Source: Octopus vulgaris (taxonomy: Eukaryota). From it: a DNA stretch of 64,000 bases. The DNA is taken from NCBI GenBank assembly GCA_951406725.2, contig OX597833.1, positions 54,312,001 through 54,376,000 on the forward strand, given 5' to 3'. Below are positions 21,168 through 55,113 of the stretch, in pieces (position 1 is the first letter of the stretch; every line of letters begins with the position of its first letter). Under the pieces are notes generated by a model, which worked only from the letters and a program-made list of their open reading frames with translations, was not told the DNA's origin and did no database searches. The position numbers and the translations under genes are program-made.

Positions 21168-21561
21168 GCGGAGATGTACTCGCATAGCAAGTAATTTGAT
21201 CTGAGATCGTATGCTGAAACGAAAACAATTGCAGCGTGGAAGGTGTTTATAAGCCATTTAAGAAACACACAAAAGCCGTTCGATTCATTTCAACATTTAA
21301 GTTTAATTTGTCAAAATATTTTCGTCGCTAAAATCCGCGACCTGTTCACTGACAAAAATCCGTGCTGTCAAAATATTTTTGTCGCTAAAATCCCGACCTG
21401 TTCACTGACAAAAATCCGTGCTGCAGCACGGATTTTTGTCAGTGAACAGGTCGCGGATTTTAGTGACGAAAATATTTTGACAAATTAAACTTAAATGTTG
21501 AAGTGAATCGAACGGCTTTTGTGTGTTTCTTAAATGGCTTATAAACACCTTTCACGCTGCA

Positions 21562-21566
<5 letters not shown>
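21168..21566. mobile_element. TA-flanked fold-back element with three hammerhead-like motifs (G3-C8 core)
   Basis: Inverted arms 21225-21423 / 21424-21566, with an internal ~56-bp duplication in the left arm; motif tttgtca GTGAACA g gtcgc...gcgac GAA aatatt t tgacaaa. Confidence 0.8.
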
Positions 21567-21596
<30 letters not shown>

Positions 21597-28815: not shown

Positions 28816-29027
28816 AATTATAATTTAGGGTACCTAAGAGATACCACCAGGCTGTAAATAGCAGCCAAAACTTGACTCTAAAACTCCATTAAATGTTTAT
28901 ACAGCACCAGGAGAGATGATAAAGAGACAAAGTAAACATTACTGGATAATTCCAGATCCTGGATTTCTGGCTTTGCATAAGAAATGCTTTGCTTCATCAG
29001 TGGAATATACGCAGATAGCACATAAAT

Positions 29028-29063
<36 letters not shown>

Positions 29064-29256
29064 TTATGAAGGCAGAACATTTCTTATGCAAAGCCAGAAA
29101 TCTGGGATCTGGAATTATCCAGTAATTTTTTTGCTAGTTTATTTTGCCTCTTTGTCTTCTATCCTGGTGCTGTATGAACATTTAGTGTTTTTAGAGTCAA
29201 GTTTTGACTGTTGTTTCCAGCATGGTGGTGTCTCTTAGATACCTTAAATTATAATT
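28816..29256. mobile_element. Fold-back element (~185-bp arms around a TA tract) with a hammerhead motif on the minus strand at 28949-29006
   Basis: Arms 28816-28997 / 29066-29256; attcca CTGATGA agc..gcat/atgc..gcc a GAA atc-cag-gat C tggaat. Confidence 0.78.
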
Positions 29257-29906: not shown

Positions 29907-30460
29907 TGCCTAATGCCAACCACCCCGAGAGTGTAGTGGGTGCCTTTTACGAGGCTGGCAATGACCACGATCAGTTAGTGTTTTTTATGTGCCACTGGCA
30001 TGGAAGCCAGTCAAGGTGGCGCTGGCATCGTCCACGTTTGGATAGTGCTTTTTACTTGCCATCGGCACAGGGATCACAACTTCAATTTCCATTTGATTCT
30101 GATTTTGATGTACTTGACTCAATAGGTCTTCTCAAGGGCATGTCGCCCTGTGATCCCAGGTACTTTTGAATGGGCTGGGGCTGGTTATGCAACACTGGTG
30201 TAAGTTTCAGCAGTGAACCCACTTTATTTGCCGGGTCTTTGCAGTCACAGCATATCTCCAGAGGTCTCGGTCTTTCGTCATTGCCTCTGTGAGGCCCAAC
30301 GTTCAAAGGTCATGCTTCACCACCTCATCCCATGTCTTCCTGGGTCTACTTCTACCCCAGATTCCTTCAACTGTTTGAGAATGGCACTTCTTCACACACC
30401 TCTCCTCATCCATCTGTAGTACACGACCATACCAGCACAACCATCTCTCTTGCACGCCAC
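29907..30460 (-). mobile_element. RTE-clade LINE 3' fragment (ORF2 C-terminus plus 3' UTR)
   Basis: ORF 30303-30515 contains ERWLCWYGRVLQMDEERCVKKC...GRSRPRKTWDEVVKHDL, the RLRWxGHV...GRPRKTW motif. Confidence 0.85.
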
Positions 30461-32689: not shown

Positions 32690-33810
32690 ACTTACTGTAG
32701 AGATGCTTTGTAGATGACATTTTTTTGTTTTTTCCTTCAGGAGCATAGATGAATAAGTTGTCTGGATGGCCAACTCTGGAACAACCGATGTAGAACTGTC
32801 CATGTGAAAAGCACAATGTTTGAAGGTCCAATCCGACAACTTTTAGTGACTGATCTTGGGCTTTGTCAATTGTCATGGTGAAGCTGAGTTTGAGAGGGAA
32901 CTGAAGTCTGTCTCTGCATAGGGTAGGGGCAGTCTGTTGGGGTTAGTGGAATTTTCGGATTGAAAACGGTATTTAGGCTTCAGTGACATGGTCCATCATT
33001 TGTTTGACAACAAGGCGAGTTCCATTGCATAGTGTGGGTACGTTTGGATTGCATAGGAGGATGACATGGTAACTGACATTTAAGTGAAGTTCATGGGGAG
33101 GAAGTCCTGGAGGATCTTTGGAGTAGAGAAATTCTGTTAGAAATTGTGTAACCTGATCAAGTTCGATAATGGTGTCAAGTGATCTGTAACAAAGTTCTTG
33201 AGAAGGTAGCTGACTGAGTAAGTCATAGTTAACAGTGTTGACAGCGGCATTTGTAGGTGCAAGAACAGCCCTGTCACAAAACGAATCTGGTTTTATGTAT
33301 TCCATTGTAAGATTTGGGTAAATGGCAGAAGATAGGTCATCAGGCCTGGAGAAAGTGTGGCCAATGGTAGTAGTGTTAATGTATTTGTTGTCATCAAATG
33401 TAATTTGACCATTGCTGATTTTAAGGAGCATTTCCAAAATATGAGTTGTAGGCTGACCAGTCTGTAGGAGTGATCTCAGGTTGATGGTGAGTTGTTTCGA
33501 TTGGACATGTGACCAAATGAGGAATTTTTTAAGGCAGGCATTAAGTTCATCAGCAGGTGTTCTTTTGGGTATAATAAGCAGAATTGTTGAAAATCTCCTG
33601 CAAGAAGCAGAGTAGCTCCGCCAAGGTTGTTGTTGCTTGATCTAAGGTCTGTCGTTGTGGTATCAAGTGCTTGTAGGGAACATTTTTGGGACATAGCTGC
33701 TACATCCCAAATAATGAGTTTGCACTTTTTCAAAATTGTCACTTCATCTGAGGAATGTATTATGTGGCATGTTGGGTTTTCTTGATGTGCTACATTGAAA
33801 GGCAATTTGG
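32690..33810 (-). pseudogene. Helitron PIF1-like helicase, frameshifted with stops
   Basis: LIIWD...GGATLLLAGDFQQ, RAVLAPTNAAV, PPGLPPHELHL...LCNGTRL, QFPLKLSFTMTIDKAQDQSL..VGLDL...FSHGQFYIGCSRV. Confidence 0.92.
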
Positions 33811-34135
33811 AAGCATTCAGAGTTCAGTGGGTGAACTGTGTAGACACGTCCGAATGAGTCACCTTTGTACATGGCTGGATCCAACTGTGTAGACTTACGG
33901 TGTAAGGGAGACAAAAAATACTTCTGACTGTTACTTCAGACCTTCTGCTTTTGAAGCCCCATTTCTCTATATCACTCCATAAGTGAAAAATCTAAATAGT
34001 GTTGAGCAATCTGTGAAACATAAATGATGTATTTGCAGAGCGTGAATGAAATCGGATGAAAAATATTGATTTTACGTGAGATCAAGTAATGGTCTGTCTC
34101 ACACACACACACACACACACACACATCATCTCTCT

Positions 34136-34909: not shown

Positions 34910-35235
34910 GATGATGATGATGATGGCCGTCCACTCGTGACCGAGGAAGACCATTGCCGACCTTCAGGAACATTGTGTGCTCTAGGACTAACTTATATTT
35001 TGCATTTGCGGCTCCGTTGGTGGCTAATGAGCCCTGCTCTTGACAAGCATACACAACTGCAAACATTGCAGACCAAGCTTTCCCCATTCACTATACGAGC
35101 CATGCGCTTTTCGCGCAGCTCGCTTAAGTTCTTCATGCTGGATACGTGCTCTCTCAAAAGTGTCAATCCCCTCCTGAACTTGCTTCCTCCATCAGTGTTG
35201 ATGACAGGCATTGTTCTCCCAGTCAGTGTTCTGCA
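34910..35235 (-). mobile_element. Second RTE (BovB-like) LINE 3' end with C-terminal zinc knuckle and (CAT)n tail
   Basis: LVCNVCSCVCLSRAGLISHQRSRKC* followed by a short UTR and catcatcat. Confidence 0.78.
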
Positions 35236-35304
35236 TGCATACATACATACATACATACATACATACATACATACATACATACATACATACATACATACAT
35301 ACAT

Positions 35305-35525
35305 GCATCATCATTATCATCAACATTTAACGTTCATTTTCCATGCTGGCATGGATTGAATGGTAAAACAGGAATTGGCAAACCAGGGCCCACACCAGGT
35401 TCCATGGTCTGTTTTGGCTTGGTTTTCTACAGCTGGATACCTTCCTAACACCAACCACTCCACAGAGTCTGCTGGGTGCATTTTTATATGGCACCAGCAT
35501 CCACACCAATGCTTTTTACATGGCA
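35305..35525 (-). mobile_element. RTE-type 3' UTR fragment
   Basis: tttaacgttcattttccatgctggcatgg...ctacagctggataccttcctaacaccaaccact. Confidence 0.75.
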
Positions 35526-36236: not shown

Positions 36237-36411
36237 GATTGTTAGCCACTACACACATCTTTTTCTCTCCTTGTTTTTTCTGTGTCCCTTTCTGTAGAAG
36301 AGCATAGGCTCGAAACGTAAAAGACTTTTTCTATTCCTGAGCGTTATACTAATACATCTGTTTGTTTTGTACACCACCTGTCTTCGTCTTTTGTTTTTTT
36401 GTAAACTCTCC

Positions 36412-40189: not shown

Positions 40190-41156
40190 TATATGCATAT
40201 AAGTATGTGTAGGTGTTTGTGTTACTGTTTCCTTCTTTGATATAATATGAGAGTTGTAAATGAGTATTACCATATTACCATCATGGCGTCATTCCTTTTC
40301 AATCTTCTTTGGAAAAACCTTGTCTGGTCATGGGAAGACATTACCCTGCTTGGAAACAGACAAATGTTGGCAACAGAAGAGGCATCCATCTGTAAAAAAA
40401 ATTCCAATTCAACAAATTCTGTCTGACCCGTGTAAGCATGGAAAAGTGGACATGAAATGATGATGATGGTGAGGATGATGATAATGACGATGATGACGAA
40501 GATGAAGATTGATGATAACGTTGATGACAATGATGATGATAATGACAATGACGACGTGACGATAACAATGACGATGACACTGACAATGACAAGGGCAATA
40601 ACGATGCTGGCAATGATATTAAAAACCTAATATTTTTTGCTGTGTCTGGGGAGAGTCATTTTCTTTTTGTGCCTTATAATGATATTTTTTTTTTCCTTCT
40701 TAAACTCTGAAATTCTTCAATACTTTTGAAGGTTGGCAGTTCTCCCGGATTCCTATATGCAAGAATCACATAGAAATTGAGTGTTGATGATACATTGATG
40801 TATTTTTGATACGACTTTAATAGCACATCACGTTAAGGTCACTTTTTTTTTCTCTTCTTACAAATTCTTAAGAGAGTTTTTCCAATTTTTAATCTGATCA
40901 TAATCAAACACCAAGAATTTAAACTAATTTTTTGGGTTTTTTTTTTTTTGCAATGCTATTAGCTGATTCATTAAATATATTTTATCACCAATAATAATTG
41001 AGAGATCTGAAGTTTATGCATTTTCAAAGGATCAAGTCGTTCATTTTTGTTTGTCGATTCAGTTGCAATTAACAGTGTCTGCATGTAATTTACTTTAAGT
41101 GTTATTAATAATTGTGTTTAATTCAGTAACAAAGCCTATTATTTTTATCAGCAAAA

Positions 41157-42725: not shown

Positions 42726-43016
42726 ATTTATATTTGAATGGATTTAAAAGCCAAACATTTAATTTAATAAATATATAGCTTTTATTGTTTTTATTTTTCT
42801 TGAAATTTTCAAATCCAAAAGATCATTTTCAAAATGGAGATTAAGCAATAAATAGATAAATAATTGAGAGAGTGAATACAATGGAAAAAACTGAAGCAGA
42901 CAAACAGGCAGACATCTCCATTGCTTCTGTCAAAACCTTGAGAGCAGCCAGGAGAAAGAGTTCAATAGATGACAGACGTAGTAGCTGTAGAAATGCAGAA
43001 ATACCCTCTGATCAGG

Positions 43017-45361: not shown

Positions 45362-45810
45362 TTTTCCTTCTTTCTTCAAATTTTCTTCCATTTCTTGCCG
45401 AGTGTTTTCTGTACACCTAGTGCAGAGAAGCTCATTGTATGCATTCCCAGATTGCACATGCAAATTCACAGGTAAAATATGTATTTAAAAAAATTAATAA
45501 ATAAATAAATTCATGAATGGACATTGTTTTCACAGCGATAATGCTCTTCTCAATACATGAGTCCTTCCAGTTAATATGATTTTTTGCACTTCCTGTATCA
45601 TTTTCAAATAGGTTTCAGTTCCTTTTTTTTTTATCATTCCTAGAGATCCTACAATCACTGGTACTGTAGTCGTCTTGAGATGCCACATTTTCTCAATTTC
45701 TATTAGCAAGTCTTTATAATTACTGATCTTGTCAAATTCTTTTGCCACTATATTGTGATCGTAAGGAATACTTATGTCAATTAATAAACACACCTTTTTT
45801 GTCTGATCTT
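45362..45810 (-). mobile_element. R4/Dong-like 3' end (endonuclease tail plus UTR) between TAA tracts
   Basis: CLLIDISIPYDHNIVAKEFDKISNYKDLLIEIEKMWHLKTTTVPVIVGSLGMI...EVQKIILTGRTHVLRRALSL*. Confidence 0.85.
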
Positions 45811-45818
45811 TATTATTA

Positions 45819-45853
<35 letters not shown>

Positions 45854-46135
45854 TAGGCAGTGTAGCTCTTATGTTTATGCCGGTCTAAGGACCTTGTAAT
45901 GAGTGAATGCTTTTTTTAAAAAAAAGGTCCGTAAAATAAGCACCAGCTGAGCCCTAGGGTGAATGTAATCAGCTTAGCCCTTCCCCCAAAATTACTGGTC
46001 TGGTGCTAAAGTTTGTAACCATTTTTATTGTGACAAGGTTTTTATCCAACCCTTTTGTTGCCATACATCTCTGTCGAGAATAAACAATGTTTCAATTAAT
46101 TTTGAAAATAATAATGAATATATGACAGAAAAATA

Positions 46136-53766: not shown

Positions 53767-54395
53767 CCATCATCATCATCGTTTAACGTCCGTTTTCCAT
53801 GCTGGCATGGGTTGGACAGTTCGACCGGGGTCTGGGAAGCCAGGAGGCTGCACTGGGCTCCAGTCTGATCTGGCAGTGTTTCTACAGCTGGATGCCCTTC
53901 CTAACGCCAACCACTCTGTGAGTGTAGTGGGTGCTTTTTACGTGCCACCAGTACAGGGGCCAGAGGAGGCTGGCAATGACCATGATTGATTGGTGCTTTT
54001 TACGTGACACCGGCATGGAAGCCAATCAAGGTGGCACTGGTATCAGCCACATTTGGATGGTGCTTCTTATGTGCCACTGGCATGGGGATCACAACTGCAA
54101 TTTCCATTTGATTTTCATTTTGATCTTGATGTACTTGACTCAATAGGTCTTCTGAAGCACAGCAGGTCGCCCTACGATCCAAGGTACTTTTGAATGGGCT
54201 GGGGGCTGGTTATGAAACACTGGTGTAGGATACAGCTGTGAACTCACTTTATTTACCAGGTCTTCGCAGTTACAGCATAACTCCTCTCAGTCTTTTCGTC
54301 ATTGCCTCTGTGAGGCCCAACGTTCAAAGGTCATGCTTGACCGCTTCATCCCATGTCTTCCTGGTCTACCTCTACTCTGGATTCCTTCAACTGTC
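53700..54395 (-). mobile_element. RTE LINE 3' fragment with (GAT/GGT)n tail; resumes at 54912-54947 after nested insertions
   Basis: Colinear with 29907-30460; broken at ttccttcaactgt and continued by gggagtggcacttcttcacac. Confidence 0.85.
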
Positions 54396-54478
54396 TGTGG
54401 AGAGTCATTTTCTTTTCGTGCCTTATTATTTAACACACTCACCGGTAAAATTTCCACTTATTTCTTATTTTTATTTTC

Positions 54479-54515
54479 TTAAAATTTTCGTTGCGTCTTG
54501 CAACCTTTTCAATAG
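54479..54515 (-). ncRNA. Minimal hammerhead-like motif with U3-A8 core
   Basis: cta TTGAAAA g gttgc-aagac-gcaac GAA aatt T taa. Confidence 0.6.
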
Positions 54516-54596
54516 TTTTGGCTCTTGCAAGTTTGACTCTTAAAGAATCTTGCAAACTAAATCCCAAAACAATATATGTATATATATATTTTTATT

Positions 54597-54786
54597 GATT
54601 CGCTAGCTTCTGCACGCATTTTTTTTCTCTCCTTGTTTCTTTTCTGTGTATCTTTCTGTTGAAGAGCTTAGGCTCGAAACGTAAAAGACTTGTTTTATTT
54701 ATATTCCTGATCGCCATACTAATACAATTGTTTGTTTATATTCCACCTGCCTTCGTCTTTTGTTTATTTTCATAAAGCTTCCCGTT
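54597..54786 (+). mobile_element. TA-flanked CUGU-NGA hammerhead element, motif 54651-54688
   Basis: tcttt CTGTTGA a gagc-ttag-gctc GAA acgt A aaaga. Confidence 0.75.
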
Positions 54787-55113
54787 ATATATATTTATAT
54801 TTATATTATATATATTATTATATATATATGTACATACATACATATATACATATATCACCATCTATGTATGCATTCATATATATGTGTGTATGTATGTACG
54901 TATGTATGTTTGGGAGTGGCACTTCTTCACACATCTCTCCTCACCCATTCTTTGTGCTTGCATGGGTTGGATAGTTTGACAGAAGCTGGCAAGCTGGAGG
55001 CACCAGTTGTCTGTCTTGATATGGCTTCTACAGCTAGATGCTCTTCCTAAATGCCAACCACTTCACAGAGTATACCGGGTGCTTTAACATGGTACCGATG
55101 CATGTGTGTGTGA

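What the first reader, a model, noticed from the sequence alone, without database searches (positions are those of the whole stretch)
54479..54515. U3-A8 core variant with the same architecture: a third 3-8 pairing in one window
Seen on -: cta TTGAAAA g gttgc-aagac-gcaac GAA aatt T taa. It has the same extra G, 5-bp stem II and AT-palindromic stem III as the G3-C8 element, but with U3/A8. Stem I is weak (2 bp) in this copy. With the C-G and G-C loci this gives covariation at exactly the known tertiary pair, which argues for selection on catalysis rather than chance.
Basis: partly seen in the sequence, partly recalled or inferred. Interest (0 to 1): 0.74.

Follow-up and report, generated by a model that had tools for sequence, protein, structure and literature searches.

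The report
Decayed retroelement hammerhead, known U3-A8 type
This is a probably broken copy of a tiny self-cutting RNA motif (a minimal hammerhead) carried by a very abundant repeat that looks like the end of a Penelope-type jumping gene; its U3-A8 core variant has already been described in other animals, so it is a new example of a known kind.

Summary
The motif is at 54479-54515 (-) as described and is not chance. A minimal-hammerhead descriptor with positions 3, 6, 7 and 8 free finds 6 sites in the window, all Watson-Crick at 3-8, against 0.06 per shuffled window. Reads show a high-copy repeat family in four organisms' runs. About 90% of contig depth has G at 54479 (minus strand), so the family's stem I is cua/uag (3 bp). 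This copy carries the minority A, which drops stem I pairing probability from about 0.65 to 0.02, so it is probably inactive. Variants are rarer in the motif than in the flank (2 of 31 vs 23 of 87 positions, p=0.02; only 40 of 77 rows seen). An inverted, 5'-truncated partner piece and a TA-tract flank fit a Penelope-like terminal repeat, but no RT ORF was found. U3-A8, the extra nucleotide and the palindromic stem III are published for Penelope-like hammerheads, including the same UUGAAAA core in Schistosoma. The '3-8 covariation' is between three separate families, not within one, and the C3-G8 family has a non-canonical U6. No cleavage ends were seen in RNA reads. Ordinary; the G3-C8 and U6 neighbours are more interesting.

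The parts
54479..54515 (-). Minimal type I hammerhead, U3-A8 core; predicted cut between 54482 (U17) and 54481
   Evidence: cut site from standard hammerhead numbering (inferred)
54513..54515 (-). Stem I 5' arm (c-u-a)
54505..54512 (-). Core 1: U3 U4 G5 A6 A7 A8 A9 plus extra G at 9a
   Evidence: no variant row shown at these positions
54490..54504 (-). Stem II (5 bp, G10.1-C11.1) with 5-nt loop; family variants fall in the loop (54495, 17-21%) and as G-C to G.U (54493, 60 of 249 reads in X22)
   Evidence: pair probability at least 0.99
54482..54489 (-). Core 2: G12 A13 A14, palindromic AAUU (stem III, can form only between two copies), U17
54479..54481 (-). Stem I 3' arm; 54479 is A here, G in about 90% of the family, which breaks the third pair in this copy
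54392..54525 (-). Repeat-family arm carrying the hammerhead (likely pseudo-LTR remnant), cut short at its 3' end at 54392
   Evidence: depth and loose ends
54541..54572 (+). Inverted, 5'-truncated piece of the same family (its far 3' part), joined head-to-head through a short filler 54526-54540 and ending at a TA tract
   Evidence: tables 2 and 7: the loose end before 54541, reverse-complemented, matches the loose end before 54392 at 15 of 18 letters (read by eye)
54595..54785 (+). Neighbouring copy of a different family with a C3-G8, U6 minimal hammerhead (core starts 54656); sister copies at 36292 and 50813
53900..54394 (+). Left half of a host repeat interrupted by the block; it resumes at 54907-54948, with TGT on both sides of the break
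   Evidence: uninterrupted copy at 29909-30413
40643..40680 (+). Short flank fragment of the same family, no hammerhead
21225..21566 (.). Separate inverted-repeat element with G3-C8 minimal hammerheads (21349 minus, 21442 plus, and a decayed third), comparator only

Best explanation
The motif is the minimal type I hammerhead of a high-copy Penelope-like retroelement (PLE) family, left here as a short terminal-repeat remnant. SHOWN: the motif; a dispersed high-copy family in several organisms' runs; a 3-bp family stem I; lower variation in the motif than in the flank; an inverted partner piece. INFERRED from established hammerhead chemistry: in source-element RNA, stem II and stem I fold locally, and two copies pair through their AAUU palindromes to make stem III. 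U3 pairs with A8 in place of C3-G8, G12 and the ribose at position 8 act as base and acid, and the cut falls after U17, slowly and probably with help from the element's protein. INFERRED for this copy: it lost stem I through one G-to-A change, has no partner hammerhead of its family nearby and no ORF, so it is a dead relic. The whole 54395-54906 block sits inside another repeat with a 3-nt junction overlap, which suggests it was copied in as a piece.
For: Descriptor against shuffles. The family-majority form fits the published min-HHR descriptor with the U3-A8 core (stem I at least 3 bp, gaaannuh). Its minimum-energy monomer fold is exactly stem I plus stem II, -7.3 kcal/mol, stem I probability 0.63-0.66 against 0.01-0.02 in this copy. 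16816, 14034 and 6124 contigs and 638 RNA reads were laid. Variant rows: 2 of 31 motif positions, 0 of 13 core positions, 23 of 87 flank positions. 7 of the 15 joint rows shown are opposite-strand joints with one end at 54515-54526, just 5' of the hammerhead. An inverted 5'-truncated partner is typical of PLE insertions (PMC8557442 passages). The same UUGAAAA core occurs in a PLE-linked S. mansoni motif.
Against: No RT or GIY-YIG domain in 146 window reading frames, and no full-length element was obtained, so the PLE link rests on architecture. No pile-up of read starts or ends, and reads lie on both strands about equally (6% of one run, organism B). No two-sided compensatory change within the family in the rows shown; 37 of 77 rows are hidden. 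A variant at 54480 (30 of 244 X22 reads, 5% in X1) breaks the middle pair of stem I. With the stem I arms included the depletion is weak (4 of 37, p=0.06). G at 9a departs from the published H consensus, and A10-to-G was detrimental in a viroid hammerhead (PMC3705267 passage). The double-hammerhead fold (-6.1) is far above two closed monomers (-14.6) in the nearest-neighbour model. No Rfam hammerhead match.
Confidence: 0.8

Rival explanations
1. The family is a non-autonomous short element (retrozyme- or SINE-like) that carries the hammerhead and borrows PLE enzymes, not the truncated end of an autonomous PLE.
For: Only short pieces were seen: family homology spans 54392-54525, no listed contig piece spans the stretch, and no ORF is present. 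A 2026 preprint ties animal retrozymes to PLEs (abstract start and one passage).
Against: Loose ends show shared family sequence continuing upstream of 54516-54525 in many contigs (table 7), as expected of 5'-truncated longer elements. The motif is minimal, not the canonical type I of retrozymes (PMC7761336 passage). No tandem array here.
Confidence: 0.12
2. The motif descends from a hammerhead but is kept in source elements as a structure or protein-binding site; cleavage is negligible or not needed.
For: In the anole PLE, hammerhead mutants did not affect insertion in vitro and no RNA-seq reads ended at the cut site (PMC11167929 passages). Here there is no end pile-up and no depth step at the predicted cut. 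G at 9a and a 3-bp stem I are unfavourable.
Against: Three families keep a Watson-Crick 3-8 pair with three different identities. That pair matters for the active core: single mutants die and the double mutant is partly rescued. This rival can coexist with the best explanation on origin.
Confidence: 0.25
3. Chance look-alike: an AT-rich stretch around a 5-bp hairpin.
For: The core is A/U-rich, stem I is 2 bp here, and a second TTGAAAA look-alike without stem I exists at 42832. No Rfam hit.
Against: 0 of 150 and a mean of 0.06 in 300 shuffles.
Confidence: 0.04
4. This particular copy is active or domesticated and cuts a host transcript.
For: Core, stem II and palindrome are intact.
Against: Stem I probability 0.01-0.02 and double-hammerhead energy +1.3 kcal/mol. 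It fails the published minimum of 3 bp for stem I. It sits in nested repeat debris.
Confidence: 0.03

Closest known systems
Minimal hammerheads (min-HHR) of metazoan Penelope-like elements, U3-A8 families (Cervera & de la Pena 2014, PMC4209133; S. mansoni families 3 and 4, Saccoglossus 1 in Fig. S3)
   Same: Type I topology, U3-A8 core (UUGAAAA identical to S. mansoni(4)), extra nucleotide between 9 and 10.1, G10.1-C11.1, palindromic 15.2-16.2, short stem I, mostly single dispersed copies.
   Different: The extra nucleotide is G (published consensus H); stem I is only 3 bp in the family and 2 bp here; no cephalopod is among the rows of Fig. S3 that I read; the link to an ORF is not shown here.
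Drosophila Penelope hammerheads (D. virilis, D. rhopaloa; same paper)
   Same: Near-identical stem II sequence (GGUUGC/GCAACC against g-GUUGC/GCAAC), stem I of 2-3 bp, AU palindrome in stem III.
   Different: They have C3-G8 and a 6-nt palindrome. The stem II likeness is seen by eye and its significance was not tested.
Poseidon PLE hammerhead of Anolis (PAc; PMC11167929)
   Same: Minimal pLTR hammerhead whose activity depends on the 3-8 pair; no RNA-seq ends at the cut site.
   Different: C3-G8 core; activity shown in vitro (protein-assisted), whereas nothing is shown for this family.
Natural U3-A8 hammerheads (Perreault et al. 2011, PMC3088659)
   Same: Same 3-8 covariation, described there as active in vitro.
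   Different: Section 8, which I read, does not tie them to PLE-type minimal motifs.

Membership tests
Minimal type I hammerhead (min-HHR descriptor, PMC4209133 Fig. S7, U3-A8 form) | Core 1 of 7-8 nt with a Watson-Crick 3-8 pair, U4, G5, A6, A9 | tested here: met
   UUGAAAA plus g; no variant row shown at these positions
Minimal type I hammerhead | Stem II of 3-7 bp closed by G10.1-C11.1, loop 3-10 nt | tested here: met
   5 bp, loop 5, pair probability at least 0.99
Minimal type I hammerhead | Core 2 gaaannuh with palindromic stem III | tested here: met
   GAA AAUU U
Minimal type I hammerhead | Stem I of at least 3 bp, in the family-majority form | tested here: met
   G at 54479 in 86-97% of four runs gives cua/uag; MFE fold
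Minimal type I hammerhead | Stem I of at least 3 bp, in this genomic copy | tested here: not met
   2 bp; this copy is filed as a decayed member of the family, not as an intact ribozyme
Minimal type I hammerhead | Extra nucleotide 9a is A, C or U (consensus above 80%, not required by the descriptor) | tested here: not met
   G here and in the G3-C8 family
Minimal type I hammerhead | Self-cleavage after position 17, as a dimer | not testable with these tools
   No end pile-up in 638 RNA reads of an ordinary cDNA library, which is uninformative
Penelope-like element pLTR | Terminal repeat flanks an RT plus GIY-YIG ORF | tested here: inconclusive
   No such domain in 146 frames; no genome held; no longer copy found
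Penelope-like element pLTR | 5'-truncated copies with an adjacent inverted copy | tested here: met
   Inverted piece 54541-54572; 7 of 15 shown joints are opposite-strand at 54515-54526, each on 1-3 contigs per run
Penelope-like element pLTR | High-copy dispersed repeat, often beside microsatellites | tested here: met
   Thousands of contigs in three runs; TA tract at 54573-54595
Penelope-like element pLTR | 30-40 bp tail at one end | tested here: inconclusive
   One end is cut at 54392; the G3-C8 comparator has a one-sided extension of about 57 nt
Rfam hammerhead families | Covariance-model match | tested here: not met
   No hammerhead family among the 5 matches with E up to 10 in 54380-54780

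The most novel reading that the evidence does not exclude
One animal genome carries three high-copy Penelope-type hammerhead families that have each fixed a different core: U3-A8, a natural G3-C8 (which I found in print only as a laboratory rescue mutant) and C3-G8 with U at the normally invariant A6. The U3-A8 and G3-C8 families look related (stem II pair U-A against C-G, shared G at 9a), so the 3-8 pair may have swapped through a double change within one lineage. If all three cleave, this is a natural mutational series that tests whether PLE hammerheads are kept for catalysis. The key paper on PLE hammerhead variants (Lunse et al., PMC5785218) was not readable here and may already list these variants.
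Probability: 0.25. Interest if true: 0.5.

Novelty: new member of a known kind. Interest (0 to 1): 0.22.

Why it matters
The U3-A8 motif adds one more, probably dead, copy to a described class and matters little by itself. The role of minimal hammerheads in Penelope-like elements is still open (PMC7761336, PMC11167929). A genome with three abundant families that keep the 3-8 pair under three identities is modest comparative support that source elements were selected for the active fold, and it supplies ready constructs for an assay.

Tried and rejected
No whole genome is held. A degenerate core pattern found 0 matches in the metagenome, viral and prokaryote collections, and a 27-nt flank pattern found 0 in metagenomes, so no full-length element or per-copy alignment could be had. 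Rfam gave no hammerhead match at 54380-54780 or 21220-21570 or among the 150 of 363 rows shown for the whole window. Pfam on 146 of 661 reading frames of at least 45 aa (94 near the motifs, 52 others) gave no RT or GIY-YIG domain. Homology of downstream flanks between families: U3-A8 vs G3-C8, 3 of 500 shuffles reached the score (a weak hint in AT-rich DNA); U3-A8 vs C3-G8, 496 of 500; G3-C8 vs C3-G8, 30 of 500. An alternative register with A17 was rejected by eye because it needs a 2-nt loop and leaves no stem I. Summed depth over median contig depth gives 6-8 x 10^4 in three runs, but the tool warns that this is no copy number, so I use it only as 'very abundant'. Earlier scan notes: none by sequence, place or the first word set; the 8 shown of 225 general notes concern other genomes and were not used. 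Lunse et al. and Arkhipova et al. 2017 are not held.

Full report
Setting. The window is AT-rich DNA dense in microsatellites and repeats, and no whole genome is held. That it is an animal, and perhaps a cephalopod, is my impression from recall and comes from no call; the run tool codes the organisms as A-E.

The observation. On the minus strand the sequence reads, in hammerhead numbering: stem I 5' arm c54515-u-a54513; U3 (54512) U4 G5 A6 A7 A8 A9 (54506); extra G 54505; stem II GUUGC/GCAAC around loop AAGAC; G12 A13 A14 (54489-54487); palindrome AAUU (54486-54483); U17 (54482); stem I 3' arm u-a-a (54481-54479). The flank fragment at 40643-40680 is real (92% over 38 nt) but has no hammerhead.

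Chance. A descriptor for a minimal type I hammerhead (Watson-Crick 3-8, A6, stem II of at least 4 bp with G10.1-C11.1, palindromic stem III, H17, stem I of at least 2 bp) finds 3 sites in the window and none in 150 of 150 locally shuffled windows. With positions 3, 6, 7 and 8 free it finds 6 sites: two G3-C8, three C3-G8 and this U3-A8. All 6 are Watson-Crick at 3-8. The 300 shuffles give 0.06 sites per window, and 5 of their 18 hits are Watson-Crick. The six sites belong to three repeat families, so the independent count is three, about 0.02 by chance. The descriptor was written after seeing the finding.

The family. Laying three contig runs (organisms A, D, E) and one raw RNA run (B) on 54380-54590 placed 16816, 14034 and 6124 contigs and 638 reads. 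Family homology runs from 54392 to about 54525. At 54479 the family letter is G on the minus strand in 91%, 94% and 97% of contig depth and in 210 of 243 RNA reads, so the family stem I is cua/uag and this copy has the minority A. With that one letter set to the majority, the minimum-energy fold is exactly stem I plus stem II (-7.3 kcal/mol; stem I probability 0.63-0.66). In the genomic copy stem I has probability 0.01-0.02. The family-majority form meets the published descriptor's 3-bp minimum; this copy fails it.

Conservation. The tool showed 40 of 77 variant rows; the weakest shown is near 12% share, so rarer variants are hidden. Among shown rows, 23 of 87 flank positions (54392-54478) vary, against 2 of 31 in 54482-54512 (p=0.021) and 0 of 13 core positions (p=0.036). 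The two changes are tolerated ones: a loop II letter (54495, 17-21% in the four runs) and G-C to G.U in stem II (54493, 60 of 249 reads in run X22). Against: with the stem I arms included it is 4 of 37 (p=0.060); a variant at 54480 (30 of 244 X22 reads, 5% in X1) breaks a stem I pair; the flank count includes positions where this copy differs from the majority; no two-sided compensatory change and no change at 3 or 8 appears within the family; and contigs drop rare variants. The support is real but moderate.

Architecture. The piece at 54541-54572 belongs to the same family but is inverted: the loose end before 54541, reverse-complemented, matches the loose end before 54392 at 15 of 18 letters (table 7, read by eye). 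It ends at a TA tract. In other copies, 7 of the 15 joint rows shown (29 hidden) are opposite-strand joints with one end at 54515-54526, each on 1-3 contigs per run. A 5'-truncated copy with an inverted copy at its 5' end is typical of Penelope-like insertions (PMC8557442, passages). No RT or GIY-YIG domain was found in 146 reading frames, and no longer copy could be fetched, so membership rests on architecture. The block 54395-54906, which also holds a C3-G8 family copy and microsatellites, splits a host repeat that is continuous at 29909-30413; TGT stands on both sides of the break. I infer that the block was copied in as a piece, which would explain the missing 3' end of the direct arm.

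Mechanism. Established for hammerheads (PMC6155905, passages): G12 is the general base and the 2'-OH at position 8 the acid; 3-8 is a core pair (PMC3088659 section 8). Inferred here: stem III cannot close in one molecule, so two motifs must pair through AAUU, and the cut would fall after U17. The model energy of the double hammerhead is -6.1 kcal/mol against -14.6 for two closed monomers, and +1.3 for this copy (tertiary contacts are not modelled). Activity should therefore be low or need protein, as reported for S. mansoni minimal motifs and for the anole element, whose hammerhead needed protein and was dispensable for insertion in vitro (PMC11167929, passages). G at 9a departs from the published H consensus and was detrimental in a viroid hammerhead (PMC3705267, one passage). 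The RNA reads lie on both strands about equally and show no pile-up of ends; with 6% of one ordinary cDNA run this neither shows nor excludes cleavage.

The covariation claim. The three 3-8 pairings lie in three families, so this is covariation between lineages, not within this element. U3-A8 and G3-C8 may be related: stem II differs by a two-sided U-A/C-G change, both have G at 9a, and their downstream flanks align weakly (3 of 500 shuffles). The C3-G8 family has U6 in 3 of 3 copies. Its 3 variable columns fall at N7, loop II and N17, all free positions (p about 0.005, post hoc), which supports its fold but makes it a core variant in its own right.

What is known. Cervera and de la Pena (PMC4209133; I read parts 1-2 of 4 of the text and all three parts of the supplement PDF as extracted text, with figures garbled) report minimal hammerheads in PLE terminal repeats, with the extra nucleotide, G10.1-C11.1, a palindromic helix III and the U3-A8 covariation, about 1,300 hits in S. 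mansoni. Their Fig. S3 has the identical UUGAAAA core in a PLE-linked motif. Perreault et al. report natural U3-A8. Searches for octopus or cephalopod with hammerhead listed no paper describing this family. Searches for G3-C8 turned up, in what I read, only the laboratory double mutant; I saw PMC3884650 and PMC8495972 as listings only. Lunse et al. on PLE hammerhead variants was not readable, so absence from print is not established for any of the three variants. Also seen: PMC6765202 and PMC7761336 (passages) and bioRxiv 2026.07.22.740005 (abstract start and one passage).

Verdict. It works like, and its family most likely is, a PLE minimal hammerhead of the known U3-A8 type; this copy is probably dead. 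New member of a known kind, interest 0.22. The G3-C8 and U6 families deserve the follow-up more than this locus does.

Noticed in passing
window 21168-21566: Near-perfect inverted repeat (21225-21566) between TA tracts, with a one-sided extension of about 57 nt (21168-21224) and an internal partial tandem of about 57 nt. It holds three G3-C8 minimal hammerheads with a 7-bp stem I; the middle one lacks G12. A natural G3-C8 core was not found in my literature searches.
   Followed up: partly
window 36292, 50813, 54656 (+): A repeat family of about 190 nt between TA tracts with a C3-G8 minimal hammerhead whose position 6 is U in all three copies; its variable columns are N7, loop II and N17.
   Followed up: partly
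window 54395-54906: Composite block (two hammerhead-family remnants plus microsatellites) inserted into a host repeat, with TGT on both sides of the break; the uninterrupted host copy is at 29909-30413.
   Followed up: yes
window 42781-42832 (-): A second TTGAAAA look-alike with a 4-bp stem II, no stem I, and a 30-nt downstream match to the finding's flank (E 0.001); either an old decayed relative or chance in AT-rich DNA.
   Followed up: partly
window 32976-33823 (-): Broken Pif1-like helicase reading frames (Pfam PF05970, PF21530), probably a Helitron remnant (the Helitron label is my inference).
   Followed up: no
window 28939-29124: Inverted repeat of about 60 nt around a TA tract, seen in the Rfam alignment; MITE-like, not examined.
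   Followed up: no
window 45533-45868 (-) and 34996-35307 (-): Reading frames that from recall resemble non-LTR retrotransposon C-termini; no convincing Pfam match.
   Followed up: no
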